Below, piece by piece: positions 21,570 through 50,519 of a DNA stretch of 64,000 nucleotides; positions within the stretch are counted from its first letter, which is position 1, and each line of letters begins with the position of its first letter. The position numbers were made by a program, and so were the translations under genes. Source of the stretch: Candidatus Bathyarchaeia archaeon. GTDB taxonomy: Archaea > Thermoproteota > Bathyarchaeia > Bathyarchaeales > Bathycorpusculaceae. The DNA lies in NCBI GenBank assembly GCA_049512075.1, contig JBEKXL010000003.1:143688-207687 (forward strand), written 5' to 3'. The notes beneath the pieces are model-generated. The model made no database searches and was not told the origin of the DNA. It saw only the letters and a list, made by a program, of their open reading frames with translations.

Positions 21570-21711
21570 TGGTGGGGTCGCGCGGATTTGAACCGCGGAC
21601 CTACGGGTTTCTCCGTGACAGCTCCAGAACTTCGTCATTCCAGCGTTCTGGTCAGCAAACCCGTTTCTACATTCTGGAGCCCGTCGTCATACCTGCCTAG
21701 ACTACGACCCC
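21570..21711 (-). tRNA. tRNA-Trp(CCA) with 65-nt BHB intron at 37/38 (21609-21673)
   Basis: Acceptor GGGGTCG/CGACCCC plus ACCA; anticodon arm ACGGG-CTCCAG|A-CCCGT; T arm CGCGG-TTCAAAT-CCGCG; BHB CTCC/GGAG with AGA and AAA bulges. Confidence 0.97.
21609..21673 (-). ncRNA. Intron-encoded box C/D guide RNA of tRNA-Trp
   Basis: Guide AACGGGTTT followed by G and D' box CTGA (N+5 gives C39); C' ATGACGA; second guide TTCTGGAG complementary to the anticodon loop. Confidence 0.85.
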
Positions 21712-41081: not shown

Positions 41082-41235
41082 GACTCAGGCTGACTATGGT
41101 TCAGTTGTCTGCTGGAAAGGCGAAAAAAACGCCGTTTGGAATCAAAACTGTATTATATTAGGACGTAGGCAAATCAAAACATTAACAGCAATGCCTATAT
41201 CGTCCGAGCGACATTGTATTCTTGAGGAATGAAAA

Positions 41236-42453
41236 ATGAACATGACAGAAAGCAACATCATTGAGCAGTGGGCAAGCAAATATCCTGAAGTCGTCTCGTG
41301 GCTTGCTAAACTCCAAGTCAAGGAGTTGAACGCGCTGAGCCTTTACCACTTCTGTCAGTGGGCAAACAAAAACCCAACTGAACTGCTAGCGTTGAAAAGC
41401 AATCCTGCCAGCCTAGAGATTGAAAAGCTATTAGACGCTTATGTCGCTGCCAAGCTGTCAGACACTAACGCACTCAGGTTCTGGCGGGTCAATGCGGTCA
41501 AGAGTTTTTTCAAATACTCCTACGTCAGCATAGCAAAAGCAGCGGGCAACATCCAGCTTGTGAAAACTAAAGACTACAACCGATTGTCTAAAGAAGGCTT
41601 AAAGCGTCTGTGGGACAACACCTACAACTTGCGCGATCGTGCGCTAATCACGTTTGTCTGCTCAACTGCCATTGCTAAGGAAACGCTTGGAAGCATCTGT
41701 TGGAAGCATTTACAAGACGACTGGGAAACCGTTGAGCTGCCTTCTATCAATCTCCCACCTGAGATATTGAAAGGTCACGGCAGAGGCAAATATGCTGGCG
41801 TCCGACAAATCACGTTTTTGACGCCTGAGAGCAAACGCGACCTGGTCAACTATAAGGTGTGGCTTGAGCAGAAGATTGGTCGCAAGGTCACGGCTGACGA
41901 TCACATCTGGCTAGAAACCATGCGCCCTTATCGCCCAGTAAGTTATGATGCTTTAGGTTTTGCAATCTGGCAGTTGTCAAAGCGCACAGGTGTCCCCTTC
42001 AGCCTGCATGATGGCAGACGCTGGGTCACAACCGCGCTAGAGCAGGTTGCCATAAGCCAGAACTGGGCGCGCGTCCTCAGAGGTCGCAAGGTAGCAGGTG
42101 CAGAAAGTCCCTATTCTCGACCAAACATTGAAGCGTTAAGAGCCAAGTTCAAGGAGGCCGTTGGGTTGTTGGAGTTTACAACTGTGACTGCCACACCGAC
42201 AGTTCCTAAAGAAGTCGCCGACAAGTTGGCAGCGTTGGAGCAGGAGCAGACCGAGTTGAAAAGGCGATACGGCATAATGCGCGAGAGGACTAAGGGTTGG
42301 AAACAGGTTGCCAAAAATCGCAATGTTTGCAAGGACAGCAAAAACTGCCAACGGATTGTCAGCGAGGACGAGTTGCCTACGTTGTTGAGTGGTGGATGGC
42401 GCGTCGTTACTTGTCTGTCGTCTGGTAAAGTCGTTGTAAGCAACGAAACATGA
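41236..42453 (+). CDS. Tyrosine recombinase/integrase
   Basis: LRDRALI, SLHDGRR (HxxR), ESPYSRP (Tyr); first catalytic Arg position reads STAIAKE. Confidence 0.85.
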   Translation: MNMTESNIIEQWASKYPEVVSWLAKLQVKELNALSLYHFCQWANKNPTELLALKSNPASLEIEKLLDAYVAAKLSDTNALRFWRVNAVKSFFKYSYVSIAKAAGNIQLVKTKDYNRLSKEGLKRLWDNTYNLRDRALITFVCSTAIAKETLGSICWKHLQDDWETVELPSINLPPEILKGHGRGKYAGVRQITFLTPESKRDLVNYKVWLEQKIGRKVTADDHIWLETMRPYRPVSYDALGFAIWQLSKRTGVPFSLHDGRRWVTTALEQVAISQNWARVLRGRKVAGAESPYSRPNIEALRAKFKEAVGLLEFTTVTATPTVPKEVADKLAALEQEQTELKRRYGIMRERTKGWKQVAKNRNVCKDSKNCQRIVSEDELPTLLSGGWRVVTCLSSGKVVVSNET

Positions 42454-42467
42454 TCTCCTTTTTTTGT

Positions 42468-42932
42468 TTAGATTTCAAAGATTTCAGAAGTCGGATGGAA
42501 AGGCTTCTTTTCTCTCTCTTCCTTCTTAGATGTTGTTTGTGGTTTTCGTTTTCTTGCTTTTTTTGTATATCCCCATTGAGCAATAGAGGTTTTCTTGTCG
42601 ATGTGAAAGACTCTGAGAACATCTGTTTCAACAGCTTGTGGTTGCTTGCCTCTGACCACTAAAAACTTCTCAGTGTATTCATAGACCTCTCTCATACTGT
42701 TTTTCTCGTTGATTATGATTTTGCGCTTTACTACTCCTTGACTAACCAATTCTCTGAGATGTTTGCTTAAAGCACCCGAAGACAATTTGGTAAGCGATTT
42801 GAGTTCCGACCAACTTCTATGTTTCTTTTCATTTTCGTCATAAAATGCACGTATGATCTTTTCCTTTGTCCTCAGTGCCTGCTGTTGTTTTTCCGTGAGT
42901 TTGCCTTCACATTCGGTACCGATTAAAGGCAT
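42468..42932 (-). CDS. Winged-helix transcriptional regulator
   Basis: SWSELKSLTKLSSGALSKHLRELVSQGVV. Confidence 0.75.
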   Translation of the reverse strand: MPLIGTECEGKLTEKQQQALRTKEKIIRAFYDENEKKHRSWSELKSLTKLSSGALSKHLRELVSQGVVKRKIIINEKNSMREVYEYTEKFLVVRGKQPQAVETDVLRVFHIDKKTSIAQWGYTKKARKRKPQTTSKKEEREKKPFHPTSEIFEI

Positions 42933-43013
42933 TGTTGACCGTCCCGTGATAATTTGTTCACGATTGCCTTATGTATAATCATATTCACGTTGTTATTCAT
43001 AAACATTGCGTGC

Positions 43014-43178
43014 GTGAGCAACGTGAAGGACAGCACAACAATAACAGTGAAGAAAAAAACTCTTCTTCGTCTCATACTACACTGCCGCAAAAACCAGAGC
43101 TATGATAATCTCATCAACGTTTTGCTAGACAATGAAGAGGCCGTTGAAAAGGCAGCTAAAGAGGTGCGACAGCAATGA
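43014..43178 (+). CDS. Small RHH/antitoxin-like DNA-binding protein
   Basis: STTITVKKKTLLRL...SYDNLINVLLD; divergent from the wHTH gene. Confidence 0.65.
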   Translation: MSNVKDSTTITVKKKTLLRLILHCRKNQSYDNLINVLLDNEEAVEKAAKEVRQQ

Positions 43179-43492
43179 GCATGGAAAAATGGTTCAGCGG
43201 CTTTCCATATACAGAGAAAACGAAGCATTTGTACCGCGAGTACATGGCGATGTTCTGCGACATCCTCAAGACCACACCGGACGACCTTGCCATCAAAACA
43301 CCTGAACAGGTCGTAGAAATCCAAGCAACACTTGCAAACGCTATGAAGAAAATGGGTTTGTCGGAATACACTGTGCATTTGCGGATCCACGCTTTGCGTT
43401 CGTTCTGGCGATACAATGGCGTAGAGTTGCCCGAAGATATTTTCAACTACAAAGATTGTGTGTGGCTCAAACGGGAGAGGAAACAACAATGA
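43175..43492 (+). CDS. Stand-alone integrase N-terminal (core-binding/SAM-like) domain protein
   Basis: TEKTKHLY...F...TPDDL...LSEYTVHLRIHALRSFWRYN. Confidence 0.7.
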   Translation: MSMEKWFSGFPYTEKTKHLYREYMAMFCDILKTTPDDLAIKTPEQVVEIQATLANAMKKMGLSEYTVHLRIHALRSFWRYNGVELPEDIFNYKDCVWLKRERKQQ

Positions 43493-43830
43493 GCGACAAC
43501 TCAGAGTTTTCAACAGAAAAAAGGTCACGTCGAGCCAAGATAGGCCTCCCAGGAACTGTAGAACTGGACGAACAGAAACCTACTGAAACCGATGCCGGCA
43601 AAGCAGCACTTAGGGAACTCATCAGGCAAGCAGCAGAGGACGGAGTAAACGCAGCACGCGCACGCATTACAGAACAACTTCCAACTGCTAAACCGTTAGC
43701 CCCTAAACCTGAAGTCATCGTTGAGCATGGCAGTGAAGTTCTCAAAAACCCTCCAGACACGGCACCTCCAGTCGAGAAGAAGGAAGAGACGCCGTTACAT
43801 CAATGGATACGGAAAAAGCGAGGTGATTGA
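43489..43830 (+). CDS. Hypothetical protein (Pro/Glu-rich)
   Basis: ATGA overlap with the upstream gene; GGAG RBS. Confidence 0.6.
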   Translation: MSDNSEFSTEKRSRRAKIGLPGTVELDEQKPTETDAGKAALRELIRQAAEDGVNAARARITEQLPTAKPLAPKPEVIVEHGSEVLKNPPDTAPPVEKKEETPLHQWIRKKRGD

Positions 43831-44720
43831 GAATGGATAAGGAAACTATCAAGGACCTCTTAGAAGGGAAGTTAGTACGAGTAACAATGGTACCAGACAA
43901 GTTGACTGACCCGATTGACAACTCAATCTTTACACTCAAGGACGTTTTGGAACATGGATATGTGAGTACAGGTGTGCCACTCGCAGTTGAAATAGCAAAA
44001 GAAATCGAGAAGCTCGCGGAATGGCAGACGACATTGCAGCAGAGATTTGATGCTGGCAAAATAGGTATCGACGTTGGCATCTGTCAAAACAAGAGAGTTA
44101 ACGACCGCTACGACGAGTTAGATCGCAATATCCACCACACGACACACACCGCTGAAATCCAAAACGAGAAAACAGGCAAGTTCTTGAAAGCGGAAATCAC
44201 CATCAGCATTTTACCAACTCTACCTGGCTTCTCATATAGCCCTGAGCAGGTTAGGCGATCATTGTCAAAACTGTTGCCATACACCGTAAAGCAGTTGCTG
44301 GACAACGGCGAGTTCAGCCTGTCAGACAAGGATTATTTGGAATACACCCAAGCAGAAGACAGGACAAAATGGCTCGCAGACCACGAGATAAAAGGAGGAC
44401 AGTTTAATCTCTTCTGGATGAAGGACGCTGCTCAAGAACTGCCAAACGTTGAACCTGTATTTGCCGACGCAGTTGGCAGATTGCGGATGCTAGCCGTCCC
44501 AGAACAGGTTATCAACGACTTCAAAACTGTGACCTCATTGCTAACGGACGACCTGAAGCAAAACTACTGGCGACATTACAACTCACTGATGCTCGCCATA
44601 TCTCGCATAGCACTGGCCGAGGCAAGGAGAAATCCACTTGACCTCTCAGGCAACAGAGATTTGGCAGCAGAAGCGGACAAAACACTCGGCAAGATGGTCG
44701 AGAACCCAAGAGGTGAGTAA
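43827..44720 (+). CDS. Hypothetical protein of the element
   Basis: 297-aa ORF, GAGGTGA RBS, operonic overlap. Confidence 0.7.
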   Translation: MRMDKETIKDLLEGKLVRVTMVPDKLTDPIDNSIFTLKDVLEHGYVSTGVPLAVEIAKEIEKLAEWQTTLQQRFDAGKIGIDVGICQNKRVNDRYDELDRNIHHTTHTAEIQNEKTGKFLKAEITISILPTLPGFSYSPEQVRRSLSKLLPYTVKQLLDNGEFSLSDKDYLEYTQAEDRTKWLADHEIKGGQFNLFWMKDAAQELPNVEPVFADAVGRLRMLAVPEQVINDFKTVTSLLTDDLKQNYWRHYNSLMLAISRIALAEARRNPLDLSGNRDLAAEADKTLGKMVENPRGE

Positions 44721-45020
44721 ATGGCAATAGCGGATTTAAGAGTGTATCTGAGAAGCCTACCGTTCTTTTATCCCAAAACCATGGGATGCAGCGGCATTAA
44801 CCAAAGCGGTCAGATAATGAATGCTGGTTCAGATGAAGTAGACGAAACCGTCTTTGTTGAACTACCTTCAGTTCCTGCTCAAGCTGGTCAAGTGCAAGCT
44901 GACTTTGAAAACCTAAGCGGATCGCCAACTGCAGAAACCGTGAAGAAGTGGCTCAGCAAACATACGCCTCCAATGACAGAAGCGCAACGGACGGCAGCGA
45001 TAGCAGCGTTCAACGTGTAA
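44721..45020 (+). CDS. Hypothetical protein; stop codon abuts the hammerhead fold
   Basis: GAGGTGA RBS; immediately follows the previous stop. Confidence 0.65.
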   Translation: MAIADLRVYLRSLPFFYPKTMGCSGINQSGQIMNAGSDEVDETVFVELPSVPAQAGQVQADFENLSGSPTAETVKKWLSKHTPPMTEAQRTAAIAAFNV

Positions 45021-45092
45021 GCTCCCCGATGAGTTGGTGAAAATCCAACGAAACCTGCCGTTATGCACCCAACGGTAGGTCGGAGCGTGCGT
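45012..45092 (+). ncRNA. Type I hammerhead ribozyme (CCGAUGA core variant)
   Basis: Stem I GCTCC/GGAGC; core CCGATGA; stem II GTTGG/CCAAC; GAAA; stem III CCTGCCGTT/AACGGTAGG; GUC cleavage triplet ending at 45081. Confidence 0.85.
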
Positions 45093-45283
45093 GTAAATCG
45101 TCCGCGCATAAGCTCCCAGCTTCGACCAATGGGAGGCTTGCAGGGTAAACGGCTTCCCCTTGCAAGCTTCCAACTCACAGTTGCCTTATGATTGGGGGCA
45201 ACGACCGTCGCTTAAGTGGGACGGCCTACCGGGACCTTGACGCGCCGCGCGCCAGACCCCTCCTAATAACGAGATGATGTAAG

Positions 45284-45457
45284 ATGCCTAAACCTCCACG
45301 CAACGATAAGGTTTTGTATTGGGACAGCGAGCGACACGAATACGTCCTGCTGCCGGCACCGCTTAAGGCACATTGGGGATTGAAGCGGAAACGAATAGCC
45401 CTGGTGCGCGGCAGGGAAAGAGCAGGAATGTGGAAAGATGTCAGAAAAGAAGCCTGA
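45284..45457 (+). CDS. 57-aa basic hypothetical protein (below ORF-track cutoff)
   Basis: Manual translation MPKPPRNDKVLYWDSERHEYVLLPAPLKAHWGLKRKRIALVRGRERAGMWKDVRKEA. Confidence 0.4.
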   Translation: MPKPPRNDKVLYWDSERHEYVLLPAPLKAHWGLKRKRIALVRGRERAGMWKDVRKEA

Positions 45458-45530
45458 TTGGAAGCCTAAGTCACCATCAAGAAAGAAGTGGATGGAAAAC
45501 GGGAAAGACTAAAACGGAGGCGAATGTAAA

Positions 45531-45935
45531 ATGAAGAATGAGGAAACGTTGCTACCTAGAGCCTGTCCATTGTATCTTGAACTGTGTCCTTACGACCTGA
45601 AAAGACTAGGCGAACCAAGACTGGAACAAGGCAGATGCCCAGTGCCAAGCTTGATCACCAAGAACATTGTTGAAGCAGGAGCAAAGGAAGACCCTAAACA
45701 AATGGTTTATGTTACTTGCCCCGAAGTTTATCGACAAAACAAAAACGCTATTGACGACCCAACTCAAGGAATAGGAGGCGTTGTGTGTTATCGTCCTTCC
45801 GATCTTACAACCGACTTCCGCGATTGCCAATTTTACAGCGAGTGGTTTTGCAAGTACAGGGGCAAGAAACCGAAACCGTACAAAGCACCACCTAAGAAAC
45901 AAGAGTTGGTTCATAAGAGCAGGTTAGAGAAATGA
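45531..45935 (+). CDS. Cys-rich hypothetical protein coupled to the ATPase gene
   Basis: GGAGG RBS; seven Cys; stop overlaps the next ATG. Confidence 0.6.
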   Translation: MKNEETLLPRACPLYLELCPYDLKRLGEPRLEQGRCPVPSLITKNIVEAGAKEDPKQMVYVTCPEVYRQNKNAIDDPTQGIGGVVCYRPSDLTTDFRDCQFYSEWFCKYRGKKPKPYKAPPKKQELVHKSRLEK

Positions 45936-47290
45936 AGCGTTTTACTGATAAAGACTTCGCGCGCGCCATAGTAGTTTATCGAGAAGTCGCTATGGCAAAG
46001 AAGAGAGTCAAACGAACGCCAGGCGAGCTGATTAACAAAACCCTTTTTGAACAGGTCGAAGACGGCAAATATCTAGGCGTTGACCTCTCCGAGTTACAGT
46101 TTATCACAGGCAAGGAAGGGCCGCTAACCAAGTGGGAGACTGATGACCTTGACTACCTTCCCCTCCCGCGCCTTCCATGGCGAAGGCTTCACCCACTCTG
46201 CATAACGGAAGAAAGTGCGGAACAACTCTACACAGATGTTAGGCGTTTCATCTACGACCACATCGACTTCTCCAAAGACGTTGAATACGACCTCTGCGCT
46301 TCATGGGTTCTGCACACTTGGAGATTGGAAAACTGGAACGTCACACCCTACCTGTCCTTCTTTGGCCCACCAGCAAGCGGCAAGACGTGGGCGATGGAAG
46401 TGTTAGCGGCGTTGTCGTTTAGGTCGCTGTTAGCCGCTATGTCGCCAGCCTCACTCTACTACGCCACGCAAGAATGGCATCCCACCTGCTTCCTTGACGA
46501 GACAGAGATGTATTTGAGAGGGGAAGAGAAGGCCGACATCCTCAACTATCTGAACATGGGCTACCGGCGCGGGCAAGTGGTAATAAGGACAACAGAGGAT
46601 AAGGACGGCTCACGCTCACCTGTAATGTTTGACGTTTTCGGGCCTAAGTGCCTTGCTGGAACCAAAGAACTATTCGACACCTTGAAGTCTCGCAGCTTCA
46701 CTTTTACCATGAGCAGGAAGACGCGCGAGATTAAGATGACAATCGATGAGGACGCCATTCTCCAACTTAGAAACAGGTTGTTCTCGTACAGGGTCAGGCA
46801 GCTAGCGGCAAACAGAAATCTCATTCTGTCCGCTGACACTTTCCTAAACCAAATCAGAGACGGCAGACTACGAGAGTTGTTTCACCCGCTAATCTCCTGC
46901 TGCCCTCAATCTGTTATTCCCCTGCTTGTCGAATATGCCGTACAACTAGACACCGAGAAAGAGCAGGAGGAAGCTCTAAGTTTGGAAGCGAGGGTTTTCA
47001 ATGCTGTTCTAAAGGCTCGGCAACTCAACGAAGACTTTATTCCGCTAAAGGCCGTTGCTGAAATTGTGAACGAGAACCTCCCACTGAAGGAAGGTTTTAG
47101 CAATCGCGCCATAGGCACATACGTTGCAAAACTAGGCTTCAAGAAACAAATCCATAAGAACCGTGCGCACGTTGTCTGGGACGAGAAACTCATCACTCGC
47201 CTTGCCAAACGCTATCCAATCGACAAAGCAGATGATAGCCCTCCTGAACCTGAACCGTACGACCATTACGCTCACCCTCCTCAGACGTGA
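45932..47290 (+). CDS. P-loop ATPase, putative replicative helicase/Rep (DUF3631-associated type) with C-terminal wHTH
   Basis: WVLHTW, TPYL, GPPASGKT Walker A, CFLDETE Walker B, LNMGYRRG, FGPKCLAG, SR finger. Confidence 0.75.
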   Translation: MKRFTDKDFARAIVVYREVAMAKKRVKRTPGELINKTLFEQVEDGKYLGVDLSELQFITGKEGPLTKWETDDLDYLPLPRLPWRRLHPLCITEESAEQLYTDVRRFIYDHIDFSKDVEYDLCASWVLHTWRLENWNVTPYLSFFGPPASGKTWAMEVLAALSFRSLLAAMSPASLYYATQEWHPTCFLDETEMYLRGEEKADILNYLNMGYRRGQVVIRTTEDKDGSRSPVMFDVFGPKCLAGTKELFDTLKSRSFTFTMSRKTREIKMTIDEDAILQLRNRLFSYRVRQLAANRNLILSADTFLNQIRDGRLRELFHPLISCCPQSVIPLLVEYAVQLDTEKEQEEALSLEARVFNAVLKARQLNEDFIPLKAVAEIVNENLPLKEGFSNRAIGTYVAKLGFKKQIHKNRAHVVWDEKLITRLAKRYPIDKADDSPPEPEPYDHYAHPPQT

Positions 47291-47492
47291 AGACGTGATA
47301 GACGTGGTAGCAGGAACCATACCCCCCTTGCAATACGCGAATACGTGATCATCAAGTGAGTGAGTTTTATAAGATTTTTATTTATCTCTTCAAATCATCC
47401 TTCTTTTGCTGACAGAACAACGGCACAGCAGCAGGGTATATGGTCTCCTGTTCCCCGTCTTTCACGTCTTCGCGTCTCACTAGCGACCAACA

Positions 47493-48182
47493 GCGAACTT
47501 GCCATGCGGGAGTATCCGAAACGTCGAACCTGCAATCTGCCCGATTTCTACCTGCTTTGACAAGTTGATGATGAGTTCGAAGCGAACTGCCAACATCGAA
47601 CTTGGAGTATCCAATGGGCGGCTTTCGAACTTCAATCTGCCCAAAACATCCCTGCTTTACTGCCAATCTCCTCAAATCATCCTTGTTATCTGCCCATTTT
47701 ATCCTTACCGAAGTGTAGGTGTGCTGAACAACAGGAGATGCCCATTTCATCCTTGCATTGGCGTTTGTGGGACGTTTCAGGCAGCAGGATTGAGCGTCGA
47801 ACTGGGACGAATAATGTAAAATACGCCCAAATCGTCCTTGTTTTCGGAAATCGGGCGTGTCAAGCGACTGTAAAAATCTTGGAAGTCGAACCTCAAAACT
47901 CAACCTAACCGCGGTAGGTCGCCGCTGCTTTGTACTTATTGTGCTTTTCCGAAATCCAGTCGAAAAATACACCATCATTTCCCATGCAAGCGTCTAGGCG
48001 TCGAACTGTAGCGGAAAGGGTCGAACTGGGGAGATTTCGAAGCGAACTGGGCGAACTAGGAAAGAATCTGGGAGATTGCTTTTTCATTGTTTCCTGCTGT
48101 CTCCCATGCCATCATCGGATACTCACCTAAAACTCGTCTATCCTCCCCTGCTTGCAGATTTGACTCTCGAACTGGGGAGATT
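47493..48182 (+). repeat. Iteron-like array of CGAAC(T/C) repeats, putative origin
   Basis: 12 co-oriented copies counted; TCGAACTGGGGAGATT identical at 48021 and 48167; TTCGAAGCGAACTG at 47576 and 48036. Confidence 0.7.
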
Positions 48183-48238
48183 AAGGTGTTCAGCAGCGAG
48201 ACATTCACTTTTCCATCAAAATTCCTGCACCTTGCGTT

Positions 48239-48291
48239 CTTTAAATGGTGTCTCCCCTGCTGAAGGTCGAGATCGCTGTTGAACTGTCAAC
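48239..48291 (+). repeat. 53-bp direct repeat, copy 1
   Basis: CTTTAAATGGYGTCTCCCMTGCTGAAGGTCGAGATCGCTGTTGAAYTGTCAAC; three mismatches vs 49358-49410. Confidence 0.9.
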
Positions 48292-48398
48292 TGCTAAAGC
48301 GTCGCCATGCTAGAACGCCATCGACAGTACACCTATCTATGTGCGCGCACTAGGTGCTTTTCAGGTCACAGGCAGCGAGTTCTCAGACGCGTTTCGTA

Positions 48399-49097
48399 TC
48401 AGACTGTTTCTTTGCTTGCCGAAAGACGGAAGTCTATTAATCTCGGAGCAAGTAGGCGAAAGACGTGATAGTCATCTAAATTCTGCTCATGGAAGTTTCT
48501 GGTAATGAAGGTGAATTTTATGAAACCGAATACGAGGTCATTATACCTTTCTCTAAAAGCACTATATGTTTGGTCCAGATATTCGGTCTGTGCACGCGAG
48601 CCAGGAGTTTGAGCAATCGGTTCAATCTTCTTGGTCTTCTCCTTCACAAGCATCGCAAAGTCAGTAACCATTGTCGAATACCTGCCAAACAAGCGCAACA
48701 GTCGAATGAAGACGGGTTTAAATTCGGTTATAGTGTTCTTCTTTTCAAAGAGTTCAAGACTCTTCCGCAATTCTGCATAGTCTTCTTGAACGGTTCTGAA
48801 ATTCTCACGGAACTGAGTTGTCTCGCGTGGCGTGACATCTATGTGAAAATCATTATGCATGTATGCAATTGAATACATGTAGTTATCTCCCATAAACTGT
48901 CCCAATGATTCCACATAGTACCAGAACTCCTTGAGCACATTTTCTGGAACCTCATTCTTCACGGCGGTCTCAGAAACCCGACCCTCCATGTAGTTTATGA
49001 TGCCTTGCCGTGCTATCTCACTCCAATTCACTTCACCAAAATGCTTCATCTTCTCATCCAGTTCGTCGGTTATGTAAAGTGTAATGTTTCTTGCCAT
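48399..49097 (-). CDS. Protein with N-terminal RHH/antitoxin-like domain and helical C-terminus
   Basis: MARNITLYITDELDEKMKHFGEVNWSEIARQGI. Confidence 0.7.
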   Translation of the reverse strand: MARNITLYITDELDEKMKHFGEVNWSEIARQGIINYMEGRVSETAVKNEVPENVLKEFWYYVESLGQFMGDNYMYSIAYMHNDFHIDVTPRETTQFRENFRTVQEDYAELRKSLELFEKKNTITEFKPVFIRLLRLFGRYSTMVTDFAMLVKEKTKKIEPIAQTPGSRAQTEYLDQTYSAFRERYNDLVFGFIKFTFITRNFHEQNLDDYHVFRLLAPRLIDFRLSASKETV

Positions 49098-49224
49098 TGC
49101 TAATCACTGTAAAGAAAGTAAACCCAAATGGTCTTATAAGTGTTGCTGTGGATTATGTGGGTTCTGCAGCTATTAACAGTGGATAAAAGCAAACATATAA
49201 TAGGACGATCAACCCACTGCTACT

Positions 49225-49340
49225 AGGCGCGCACAAATCGGGCTTCAACGGCGACCAGGGTCGTGTTGGCCGCACGGTGTGAGGTCGCTGTTGAGGCAAG
49301 CGATTTGTCTGAGAATAGGTCAACGTGTTATTTTAGTTTT
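49225..49340 (+). ncRNA. Putative hairpin small RNA
   Basis: BRE/TATA-like AAAAGCAAACATATAA at 49185-49200; stems ACAAATCG/CGATTTGT and GCTTCAACGGCGACC/GGTCGCTGTTGAGGC; T-rich tract at about 49328-49341. Confidence 0.5.
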
Positions 49341-49357
49341 TCCTTGCACTCTCACGC

Positions 49358-49410
49358 CTTTAAATGGCGTCTCCCATGCTGAAGGTCGAGATCGCTGTTG
49401 AATTGTCAAC
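49358..49410 (+). repeat. 53-bp direct repeat, copy 2
   Basis: Matches 48239-48291. Confidence 0.9.
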
Positions 49411-49438
49411 AACTCACCGACGTTGCCAACTGCCTGGT

Positions 49439-50395
49439 TCATCTTCTATTGAGAACGTAAGCGAGATACACCGCAATCAGAGGGCCGAAAACTGTTGAAA
49501 ACGCTATGAGGGCAGCGTCTGCGTTGATTTCGCCAGAGTAGAGCAAAAAGACAGGGGCGACGAGGCTGACGGCCGAAATGATGCCGACGACTACCACGTG
49601 TTTGTGAATATCATGCCTTTTGAGGGTTTCAAATATGGGATACTTAAGACTTGGCTTGTCGGTGAAAAGCAGGGTTCCCCGCTTTTGGAAATCTTCAATG
49701 TCACCGTTCATTTGGACTAGTCGGCTCTTGGTCGGCTCGATCAGAAATTGTCCAAACTCCGTGAGCACGAAGAACACCGTGTCCCCCTGCTCCTTCTTGG
49801 TCCTATGTTCAAGAGTATAGATCAGGCGGCTCTCAAACGCCTTCCTGAACTTGTTTAGTTCGCCGCCTATTTCTTCCATCACGACCTTCACGTCACCCAT
49901 CTTCCAATATTCATTCAGGAGCACGTATGTCTCGCGCAGGTATCTGAGACATTGATGCCTCGCTGGCTCCAATCCCTCGTGCACGTACGACGCGAGACTT
50001 GTCCACGCATCGTACACTTTCAGAAATATCTTCTCGTCTGAAGAAAGGTAAAGCTCGTAGAACACTGGAACTCCTTTTGACAATATCATGCGCCGCCCCA
50101 AAAACGAGATGCCAATAGCCCCGAGGAAAAGAAGAATAGTTACGCTGCCCCCAAGTATGGAATTTTTCGAGACGTAAAACACGAAAAACATGGCTGCCAT
50201 GCCGCCGAGCACCAATAAGATCCCCAAATTCTGAACCCTTCTACCCGATCTTGATAGGTCGTTGTAAGTTCTTATGCGTGTTTCAAGTACATCCTTGTGG
50301 TTTTTGAAATAATCCTCCATGGAACGCTCGGGCATCTGCATGTTTAACCATTGTCGGAAACTGCAGATATAATTCTTTTCCTCATAGCGCTTCAC
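49439..50395 (-). CDS. Hypothetical membrane protein (two TM pairs around a helical domain); start uncertain
   Basis: 318-aa ORF with N- and C-terminal hydrophobic hairpins. Confidence 0.65.
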   Translation of the reverse strand: MKRYEEKNYICSFRQWLNMQMPERSMEDYFKNHKDVLETRIRTYNDLSRSGRRVQNLGILLVLGGMAAMFFVFYVSKNSILGGSVTILLFLGAIGISFLGRRMILSKGVPVFYELYLSSDEKIFLKVYDAWTSLASYVHEGLEPARHQCLRYLRETYVLLNEYWKMGDVKVVMEEIGGELNKFRKAFESRLIYTLEHRTKKEQGDTVFFVLTEFGQFLIEPTKSRLVQMNGDIEDFQKRGTLLFTDKPSLKYPIFETLKRHDIHKHVVVVGIISAVSLVAPVFLLYSGEINADAALIAFSTVFGPLIAVYLAYVLNRR

Positions 50396-50519
50396 TGGGC
50401 TGGGTGCATAGAGAAGCGGTCAAACGATATTTTAACTGAGTAAAATGCCGCATACTGGTTTGGTTTGGCACAAGGGTATTATATAAAGCCATAACATATC
50501 CCTAGGGTATAAGTTTGAG

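What the first reader, a model, noticed from the sequence alone, without database searches (positions are those of the whole stretch)
45012..45092. Hammerhead ribozyme fused to a stop codon inside an archaeal integrated element
Seen: right after the TAA of ORF 44721..45020 the sequence reads GCUCC-CCGAUGA-GUUGG(UGAAAAU)CCAAC-GAAA-CCUGCCGUU(AUGCACCC)AACGGUAGG-UC-GGAGC. Established: this is the full type I hammerhead topology (stem I, CUGANGA, stem II, GAAA, stem III, UH), and all three stems pair. Deviation: position 4 is C (CCGAUGA). Stem I extends through an AA bulge made from the stop codon (ACGUGU/GUGCGU), which could dock loop II. Inference: cleavage after C45081 would split the operon between the upstream genes and the replication module (45.3-47.3 kb). 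I do not know of ribozyme-controlled expression in such archaeal elements.
Basis: partly seen in the sequence, partly recalled or inferred. Interest (0 to 1): 0.9.

Follow-up and report, generated by a model that had tools for sequence, protein, structure and literature searches.

The report
Hammerhead ribozyme in archaeal integrated element
A 66-base self-cleaving hammerhead RNA motif sits directly after a stop codon inside a 9.3-kb mobile element in an archaeal chromosome; it belongs to a large family of virus-borne hammerheads, so it is a real but not unprecedented kind of feature.

Summary
Window 45021-45086 (+) has the full type I hammerhead topology with C instead of U at core position 4, starting right after the TAA of ORF 44721-45020. 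It is not a chance look-alike. A covariance model built only from 18 hammerheads of viral contigs, without this sequence, hits exactly these 66 bases at 57.5 bits, E 6e-17. Placement flush with the upstream stop codon is also typical of the family (32 of 49). The host region is a true insertion, 41159-50475, flanked by 9-bp direct repeats and absent from three of four congeners. It carries an integrase-like gene and a DUF3631-like replication gene.

Self-cleavage and the splitting of the operon are inferred, not shown. No independent copy of this element could be read and no RNA data were listed. Rfam's hammerhead models miss the motif, but they also miss the viral family members. Precedents exist: prophage hammerheads, and the halovirus HF1/HF2 hammerhead upstream of a helicase gene (PMC3088659). 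Verdict: new member of a known kind, moderate interest.

The parts
45018..45020 (+). TAA stop codon of ORF99 (44721-45020), flush with stem I
   Evidence: The same flush placement occurs in 32 of 49 family members that have an upstream ORF.
45021..45025 (+). Stem I, 5' strand (GCUCC)
45026..45032 (+). Core C3-C4-G5-A6-U7-G8-A9 (CCGAUGA), with C instead of U at position 4
   Evidence: C4 is recurrent in the family.
45033..45049 (+). Stem-loop II: GUUGG, loop UGAAAAU, CCAAC
   Evidence: UGAAA-type loop II is typical of the family.
45050..45052 (+). Core G12-A13-A14
45053..45080 (+). Stem-loop III: 10 bp from A15.1 (45053) to U16.1 (45080), loop AUGCACCC
45081..45081 (+). C17; the predicted cleavage is between 45081 and 45082
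   Evidence: Position in the hammerhead consensus. Cleavage was not tested.
45082..45086 (+). Stem I, 3' strand (GGAGC); it would be the 5' end of the downstream product
45013..45016 (+). Possible distal extension of stem I (ACGU, pairing with GCGU at 45089-45092) across internal loop GUAA/GU
   Evidence: MFE only; no comparative support.
45082..45116 (+). Alternative hairpin that takes up the 3' strand of stem I. 45082-93 pairs with 45103-09 and 45112-16. The second copy of the 9-nt repeat UAAGCUCCC lies at 45109-17.
   Evidence: The 3' product alone folds at -16.5 kcal/mol. A similar 5' hairpin appears in 42 of 91 family members against 26% of shuffles.
45087..45283 (+). Rest of the GC-rich, hairpin-rich spacer before ORF57. 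The whole gap 45021-45283 has 57% GC, against 47% for the element.
43175..45020 (+). Upstream gene block: ORF105, ORF124, ORF297, ORF99, overlapping or abutting
   Evidence: No Pfam family. ORF297 has one relative among 5.8 billion proteins.
45284..47290 (+). Downstream gene block: ORF57, ORF134, ORF452 (DUF3631-like putative replication protein)
41236..42453 (+). Tyrosine-recombinase-like integrase (405 aa)
   Evidence: Weak HMM hits. The atlas gives archaeal integrase clusters at 0.97-0.99.
42468..42932 (-). Winged-helix regulator, divergent from the + strand operon
   Evidence: all matches lie below the curated cut-offs
41150..41158 (.). Left copy of the 9-bp direct repeat GTATTATAT (attachment or target-site repeat)
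50476..50484 (.). Right copy of the 9-bp direct repeat GTATTATAT
41159..50475 (.). Integrated element (9.3 kb) between the eRF1-like gene and the TBP gene
   Evidence: Empty site in congeners G248, G308 and G275.

Best explanation
Window 45021-45086 encodes a genuine type I hammerhead ribozyme. It belongs to a large family carried mostly by viral contigs, with a 5-bp stem II, a UGAAA-type loop II, and U or C at core position 4. It lies in a 9.3-kb integrated element of an archaeon, between two co-directional gene blocks. The upstream block is four genes of unknown function. The downstream block is ORF57-ORF134-ORF452, a putative replication module. Inferred mechanism: both blocks are transcribed as one RNA. 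As soon as base 45086 leaves the polymerase, the ribozyme folds and cuts after C45081. The upstream mRNA then ends 61 nt after its stop codon in the compact stem II/III fold, with a 2',3'-cyclic phosphate. The downstream mRNA starts with a 5'-OH at GGAGC, which refolds with the GCUCC at 45112-16 into a terminal hairpin. The two halves can then have different stabilities and translation. Shown: motif, family membership, covariation in the family, insertion borders. Inferred: transcription across the gap, cleavage, and its consequences.
For: Motif and fold. It is unique in the genome under a descriptor scan and exceeds 12 random genomes. Model R2 was built from 18 viral-contig hammerheads without this sequence. 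It hits 45021-45086 at 57.5 bits, E 6.1e-17; the next hit in the window is 8.9 bits and in the genome 17.1 bits. In that family 98.3% of cells pair, 17 of 20 pairs show compensatory change, and 0 of 500 shuffles reach this; slid controls pair at 30-48%. With this copy and two archaeal copies added the figures are 96.8% and 14 of 16. One C4 copy (L172) lies among RAGATH-14/-6/-7/-9 RNAs and three hatchet ribozymes. Family members sit like this one. The upstream stop codon ends within 3 nt of stem I in 32 of the 49 that have an upstream ORF, out of 79 examined. An ORF starts within 300 nt downstream in 70 of 79. Two more strong family hits lie in other archaea of the same order (G039, 48.2 bits) and phylum (G382, 54.2 bits), both between co-directional ORFs. 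There is no T5 run between 42900 and 46043 and no TATA consensus in the gap. Print: hammerheads flank genes in prophage polycistronic RNAs and cleave them in vitro; the HF1/HF2 hammerhead lies 13 nt upstream of a helicase gene; a viroid U4C variant keeps in vivo function (PMC3088659).
Against: No cleavage data exist. No independent copy of this particular ribozyme was found. The only other hit (L112) is 100% identical over 12,390 bases and is the same assembly. No hammerhead was found in 22 loci around ORF452 homologues. With the single-sequence model R1, none was found in 150 genomes of the family. Rfam does not recognise it: no gathering hit; only a permuted 14.9-bit RF00008 match at E 2.7; RF00163 does not report it at E up to 10. 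U4C lowers activity in vitro according to PMC3088659. Once 45087-45125 is present, a fold without stem I is 2 kcal/mol more stable (-41.4 against -39.4), and stem I has probability 0.02 at equilibrium. The next long ORF starts 202 nt after the cut, further than the family median of 38.5 nt. The archaeal promoter and terminator check was a simple motif search only.
Confidence: 0.6

Rival explanations
1. It is a hammerhead by descent but no longer active or useful: a relic carried in with a gene cassette, weakened by C4 and trapped by the downstream alternative hairpin.
For: It is a singleton: no second lineage of this element could be read. U4C lowers in vitro activity (PMC3088659). The alternative fold is 2 kcal/mol more stable in the 121-nt context.
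Against: All 20 stem pairs and all other core positions are intact, which decay would not preserve. C4 copies in viral contigs keep covarying stems in 27 of 34 matches, so C4 is under selection there. Alternative 5' hairpins of the 3' product are themselves enriched in the family, 42/91 against 26% of shuffles.
Confidence: 0.22
2. The ribozyme is active, but its job is tied to translation of the upstream gene rather than to splitting the operon. Because stem I starts at the stop codon, a terminating ribosome would unwind it, so cleavage or religation would depend on ribosome traffic. Alternatively, the hammerhead mainly serves as a protective 3' end for the upstream mRNA.
For: The flush stop-codon placement is a family trait: 32 of 49, 15 of them at exactly 0 nt. 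In G039 the 3' strand of stem I (GGAGG) is the ribosome-binding site 5 nt before the next ATG.
Against: There is no experimental or comparative test of ribosome dependence. Compact viral genomes could give flush placement without any function. Here the next long ORF is 202 nt away.
Confidence: 0.12
3. It is a chance look-alike, or a DNA-level element such as inverted repeats of a replication origin upstream of the replication genes, and no ribozyme at all.
For: The relaxed core was needed to find it. The gap holds several other hairpins. Rfam models do not report it. The minus strand also folds, more weakly: z -2.28, 5 of 200 shuffles.
Against: The family model gives E 6e-17. Loop II matches the family's UGAAA-type loop. 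The strand matches the flanking genes. The Rfam gathering scan also reported no hammerhead in 12 viral loci that each carry a well-formed one, two with a canonical core, so Rfam's silence says little.
Confidence: 0.03

Closest known systems
Hammerhead ribozymes of bacteriophages and prophages (Perreault et al. 2011, PMC3088659; passages and section 8 read)
   Same: Intergenic position between co-directional genes of a mobile element that also carries an integrase. Same core, three stems and cleavage-site context. The print shows such ribozymes cutting polycistronic RNAs in vitro.
   Different: The host is an archaeon. There is one ribozyme rather than several flanking a gene. The core has C4. 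It is type I, whereas that paper stresses type II in bacteria.
HHphage of haloarchaeal viruses HF1/HF2 (PMC3088659, Discussion passages)
   Same: A hammerhead in an archaeal virus-like genome, upstream of a helicase or replication operon. A mapped 5' end near the cleavage site suggests activity in vivo.
   Different: HHphage has a two-nucleotide insertion near C3 and lies 13 nt before the start codon. Here the change is U4C and the next long ORF is 202 nt away. The host here is not shown to be a halophile.
Viral-contig type I hammerheads with 5-bp stem II and UGAAAAUU loop
   Same: Same topology, same core including C4 in 27 copies, near-identical loop II, flush stop-codon placement. Model R2 built from them scores this copy at 57.5 bits.
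   Different: Loop II here has 7 nt (UGAAAAU, as in 2 of 84 unique U4 copies) instead of 8. Stem III is longer. The hosts of those contigs are unknown to me.
Viroid hammerhead with natural U4C change (Ambros and Flores 1998, known to me only through its citation in PMC3088659; the paper itself was not held)
   Same: The same core substitution, reported to cut poorly in vitro yet to suffice in vivo.
   Different: That one is a circular RNA replicon of plants, type III context, not a DNA element's mRNA.
Rfam Hammerhead_1 (RF00163) and Hammerhead_3 (RF00008)
   Same: Same ribozyme class.
   Different: This copy does not reach either model's gathering score. Neither do the viral family members tested.

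Membership tests
Hammerhead ribozyme (class) | Three helices meeting at a junction, in the order stem I / CUGANGA / stem II / GAAA / stem III / UH / stem I (type I) | tested here: met
   stems of 5, 5 and 10 bp with no mismatch
Hammerhead ribozyme (class) | Conserved core C3, G5, A6, G8, A9, G12, A13, A14 | tested here: met
   all eight are present
Hammerhead ribozyme (class) | U at position 4 | tested here: not met
   C4. However, C4 copies form 27 of 34 well-formed hammerheads in viral contigs, against 0 of 6 for A4 and 0 of 2 for G4. A U4C viroid variant works in vivo (PMC3088659). The strict consensus fails, but a pyrimidine at position 4 fits natural variation.
Hammerhead ribozyme (class) | G10.1-C11.1 and A15.1-U16.1 closing pairs, and H (not G) at position 17 | tested here: met
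   G45033-C45049, A45053-U45080, C45081
Hammerhead ribozyme (class) | Site-specific self-cleavage giving a 2',3'-cyclic phosphate and a 5'-OH | not testable with these tools
   No RNA run was listed.
Hammerhead ribozyme (class) | Tertiary contact between stem I and loop II | tested here: inconclusive
   An internal loop GUAA/GU in an extended stem I is predicted, but it is not conserved in the relatives I read.
Rfam RF00163 / RF00008 / RF02276 | Score at or above the curated gathering score | tested here: not met
   As a control, 12 viral loci with well-formed hammerheads also gave no hammerhead hit at gathering.
   57.5 bits, E 6.1e-17 in the window and 2.6e-15 in the genome. The training sequences themselves score 42-75 bits.
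   0 nt here; 32 of 49 within 3 nt in the family.
Integrated mobile element with tyrosine recombinase | Insertion absent from close relatives, flanked by direct repeats, with an integrase gene at one end | tested here: met
   Empty site in 3 of 4 congeners. 9-bp repeats. Integrase-like ORF405: weak HMM hits, atlas 0.97-0.99.

The most novel reading that the evidence does not exclude
This hammerhead represents a family of mobile-element type I hammerheads for which my searches found no description as a subfamily. The family has a 5-bp stem II, a UGAAAAU(U) loop, and a pyrimidine rather than strictly U at core position 4. Its stem I begins at the very stop codon of the upstream gene. A terminating ribosome would therefore melt stem I, so that cutting (or re-joining) of the operon RNA is gated by translation of the upstream gene. 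A downstream 'clamp' hairpin then captures the new 5' end. In this archaeal element, that would couple the fate of the replication-module mRNA to expression of the upstream block.
Probability: 0.15. Interest if true: 0.75.

Novelty: new member of a known kind. Interest (0 to 1): 0.42.

Why it matters
Hammerheads are known in all domains of life, but Perreault et al. (2011) counted only 'at least three' archaeal examples, and the role of prokaryotic hammerheads is still called an open question (PMC6155905, passages read). This copy and the two others found here (G039, G382) add archaeal chromosomal and mobile-element cases with clear gene context. The comparison also yields three testable regularities for the wider family. 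First, C is accepted at core position 4 while purines are not. Second, stem I is flush with the upstream stop codon. Third, the 3' product often forms a 5' hairpin. If confirmed at the bench, these would refine search descriptors, which now miss such copies because Rfam models do not report them. They would also point to how ribozyme cleavage is integrated with translation in compact operons.

Tried and rejected
Rfam: the gathering scan of the window, the E-value scan of 44900-45300 and RF00163 over the genome gave no usable hammerhead hit. I do not count this as evidence against, because the same library missed the viral family members.

A loose pattern over the genome gave thousands of matches and was useless. 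I replaced it with a descriptor script.

Relatives of the element were sought in several ways.
- ORF297, ORF452 and ORF99 in viral contigs gave no relatives.
- ORF297 in 200 other genomes of the order gave none.
- ORF297 against 5.8 billion proteins gave only itself and P0002 (75% identity, on a 9,733-bp contig).
- ORF452 homologues occur in 29 of 201 genomes, G000 included. Neither R1 nor R2 found a hammerhead in 22 loci around them.
- R1 over 150 genomes of the family gave 7 weak hits, none with a hammerhead core.
- L112 from the metagenome scan is the same assembly.

RNA evidence: no RNA holder was listed, and read laying was therefore not used.

A pseudoknot between loop II and flanking sequence was looked for by eye only, and I found nothing convincing. 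The weak R1 hits in the paralogous locus L039 lack GAAA and stem III.

Papers: the search 'hammerhead' plus 'U4C' found only PMC3088659. 'CCGAUGA' anywhere found 106 papers, and the 15 listed are unrelated. The search surfaced a natural A6C variant (PMC7151607, outline only) but no C4 family. I therefore found no print on a C4 subfamily. However, the alignments in the supplements of PMC3088659 (Dataset S1) could hold such copies and were not available.

Full report
WHAT IS THERE. The TAA of ORF 44721-45020 (45018-20) abuts stem I. Folded alone, 45012-45092 adopts this three-way junction: -30.1 kcal/mol, z -3.59, 0 of 200 shuffles as stable. It adds a 4-bp distal extension ACGU/GCGU across an internal loop. 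The opposite strand folds less well: z -2.28, with 5 of 200 shuffles as stable. Every hammerhead core position is canonical except position 4, which is C.

IS IT MORE THAN CHANCE? A descriptor scan of the whole genome (2,725,246 bases, both strands) asked for stems of at least 4 bp. With the strict core CUGANGA it gave 0 hits. With CNGANGA it gave 1 hit, this one. In 12 first-order Markov genomes of the same size, a looser descriptor (stems of at least 3 bp) gave on average 5 hits. None of them had more than 15 summed stem pairs, whereas the real motif has 20. A scan of very many windows could still meet such a motif by chance, so I looked for independent evidence of descent.

FAMILY. A pattern made of the core plus this copy's stem II found hammerheads with canonical cores in viral contigs, genomes and metagenomes. 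Many of them share not only stem II but a UGAAA-type loop II. I then searched viral contigs for C-N4-GAUGAG, a UGAAA loop and CGAAAC, varying only position 4.
- C4: 34 stretches; 27 of 34 are well-formed (20 type I, 7 type III; 21 unique).
- A4: 6 stretches; 0 of 6.
- G4: 2 stretches; 0 of 2.
C at position 4 is therefore a recurrent state of a real family, and purines are not.

The single-sequence model R1 found 18 type I copies in 18 viral loci, 16 with C4 and 2 with U4. On their alignment 98.3% of cells pair, 17 of 20 pairs show compensatory changes, no shuffle of 500 reaches this, and slid controls pair at 30-48%. That alignment was fitted to the structure, and the sequences had passed a stem filter, so the figures lean high. 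The pattern that collected the sequences, however, said nothing about stems I and III.

Model R2 was built from those 18 sequences only. It hits the window at exactly 45021-45086 with 57.5 bits, E 6.1e-17; the next hit is 8.9 bits. Over the genome the E-value is 2.6e-15 and the next hit is 17.1 bits. This is the main membership test, and it is met.

Rfam's hammerhead models do not report the motif. They also report none of the hammerheads in 12 viral loci, including two with canonical cores. That negative result therefore reflects the models, not the sequence. In one of those loci (L172) a C4 hammerhead lies between RAGATH-14 and RAGATH-6, near RAGATH-7, RAGATH-9 and three hatchet ribozymes. 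That is the classical ribozyme-rich phage context.

CONTEXT. The window is archaeal. It holds archaeal RNase P RNA, TBP, family B DNA polymerase and eRF1 domains. In three of four congeners (G248, G308, G275) the eRF1-like gene and the TBP gene lie about 110 bp apart. Here they are 9.4 kb apart. Homology to G248 breaks at 41156 and resumes at 50476. The insertion 41159-50475 is flanked by the 9-bp direct repeat GTATTATAT, which is present once (as GTATTATGT) in the empty site.

The element starts with a 405-aa protein that gives weak integrase hits (phrog_1 E 0.0023, XerA E 0.003). That protein sits next to archaeal tyrosine-recombinase clusters in the protein atlas (0.97-0.99). A divergent winged-helix gene follows, with all matches below the curated cut-offs. 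Then comes a tight + strand block ORF105-ORF124-ORF297-ORF99, the hammerhead, a 197-nt GC-rich hairpin-rich spacer, and ORF57-ORF134-ORF452. ORF452 has no Pfam family. Its atlas model aligns with DUF3631 proteins and Toprim-primase-associated proteins of viruses and archaea (TM 0.6-0.84), which is a lead towards a replication role. Between 42900 and 46043 there is no run of five T on the + strand, and the first such run after ORF452 is at 47375. No TATA consensus lies in the gap. One transcript across both blocks is therefore plausible but not shown.

FAMILY HABITS THAT THIS COPY SHARES. I examined 79 unique type I family members with enough flanking sequence. Of these, 49 have a same-strand ORF of at least 60 codons ending within 60 nt upstream of the core. 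In 32 of those 49 the stop codon ends within 3 nt of stem I, and in 15 the distance is exactly 0, as here. In 70 of the 79 an ORF starts within 300 nt downstream, at a median of 38.5 nt. Here that distance is 202 nt.

The 3' product of this copy begins with GGAGC and folds into a 5'-terminal hairpin with the GCUCC at 45112-16 (-16.5 kcal/mol). That partner is part of a second copy of the 9-nt string UAAGCUCCC (45018-26 and 45109-17). A comparable 5' hairpin is predicted in 42 of 91 family members, against 26% after shuffling the downstream sequence. For this GC-rich copy alone the shuffled rate is 58%, so here the feature is only suggestive. Once these downstream bases are present, a fold without stem I is 2 kcal/mol more stable than the active fold, and stem I has probability 0.02. 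If the ribozyme works, it most likely works during transcription, before the competitor emerges. The competitor could also hold back a fraction of molecules.

OTHER ARCHAEA. R2 found two more strong hits, one among 150 other genomes drawn from the order and one among 150 drawn from the phylum; the two samples share some genomes. They are G039 (same order, 48.2 bits) and G382 (same phylum, 54.2 bits). Both are type I with canonical U4 and UGAAA-type loops, and both lie between co-directional ORFs. Three weaker hits of about 20.5-20.7 bits (G111, G394, G322) were not judged. In G039 the ribozyme starts one base after a TAA. Its 3' stem I strand GGAGG lies 5 nt before the next ATG, so cleavage would free a ribosome-binding site.

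WHAT IS KNOWN. Perreault et al. 2011 (PMC3088659; abstract, section 8 and passages read) reported at least three archaeal hammerheads and hundreds of bacterial ones near integrases and prophages. They described ribozymes flanking genes in polycistronic RNAs that cleave in vitro. They also described a variant in the haloarchaeal viruses HF1/HF2 lying 13 nt upstream of a helicase gene, with a mapped 5' end within three nucleotides of the cleavage site. The same paper notes that a viroid U4C variant cuts poorly in vitro yet supports infectivity. A review calls the role of prokaryotic hammerheads an open question and stresses their link with phages (PMC6155905, passages). The kind of feature is therefore known. 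What is new here is the host lineage and element, and the side observations on the family.

WEAKNESSES. There is no RNA or cleavage evidence. This lineage of the element is represented only by itself. L112 is the same assembly. The one protein relative of ORF297 lies on a contig I could not fetch. Loci with homologues of the replication protein carry no hammerhead. The hosts of the viral contigs are unknown to me. Supplements of the cited papers were closed and may already list C4 copies.

VERDICT. Its function as an operon-splitting self-cleaver is the best inference, at about 0.6. It is a new member of a known kind, of moderate interest. The family-level regularities (pyrimidine at position 4, stop-codon fusion, 5' clamp hairpin) are the most promising leads.

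Noticed in passing
I found no print on a C4 subfamily; supplements were not seen.
   Followed up: yes
Viral-contig loci L171-L323: Stem I of type I family members starts within 3 nt of the stop codon of a co-directional upstream ORF in 32 of 49 cases (79 examined). The 3' product forms a 5'-terminal hairpin in 42 of 91, against 26% of shuffles.
   Followed up: partly
L331 8701-8770 and 9784-10845 (G039:C22): An archaeal type I hammerhead starts 1 nt after a TAA. Its 3' stem I strand GGAGG lies 5 nt before the next ATG. About 1 kb downstream on the same strand is an RNA 3'-terminal phosphate cyclase (RtcA) gene, an enzyme whose product is a 2',3'-cyclic phosphate RNA end, the same kind of end that hammerhead cleavage leaves. 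This may be coincidence.
   Followed up: partly
L332 9564-9618 (G382:C9): Another archaeal type I hammerhead (54.2 bits, canonical core) lies between two co-directional ORFs of unknown function.
   Followed up: partly
L172 683-1515 and 2425-4844: A C4 type III hammerhead (core match at 922-951) sits between RAGATH-14 and RAGATH-6, next to RAGATH-7, RAGATH-9 and three hatchet ribozymes on one viral contig.
   Followed up: no
L051 2569-2620 and 3356-3409: Two hammerhead hits lie about 740 nt apart on the same strand of one viral contig, as if flanking a gene.
   Followed up: no
window 45087-45191: A GTG at 45087, one base after stem I's GGAGC, opens a 35-codon frame that ends at 45191. It is in frame with listed ORF 45063-45191. 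After cleavage it would lie 5 nt from the new 5' end. There is no evidence that it is coding.
   Followed up: no
window 48239-48291 and 49358-49410: A 53-nt direct repeat (94% identical) lies inside the integrated element, flanking ORF 48399-49097 on the minus strand.
   Followed up: no
window 21573-21711: Rfam reports a tRNA gene with a 69-nt intron (50 bits), which ARAGORN did not report.
   Followed up: no
G293:C1:1342976-1345585 (L162, L167): The fourth congener has about 2.6 kb between the same eRF1-like and TBP genes, so this site may be a recurrent insertion spot. R2 found no hammerhead in the parts held.
   Followed up: partly
G000, several contigs: The genome gives 8 matches to the TBP protein at about 62-66% identity besides the window's copy, so there are many TBP paralogues, some with internal stops.
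   Followed up: no
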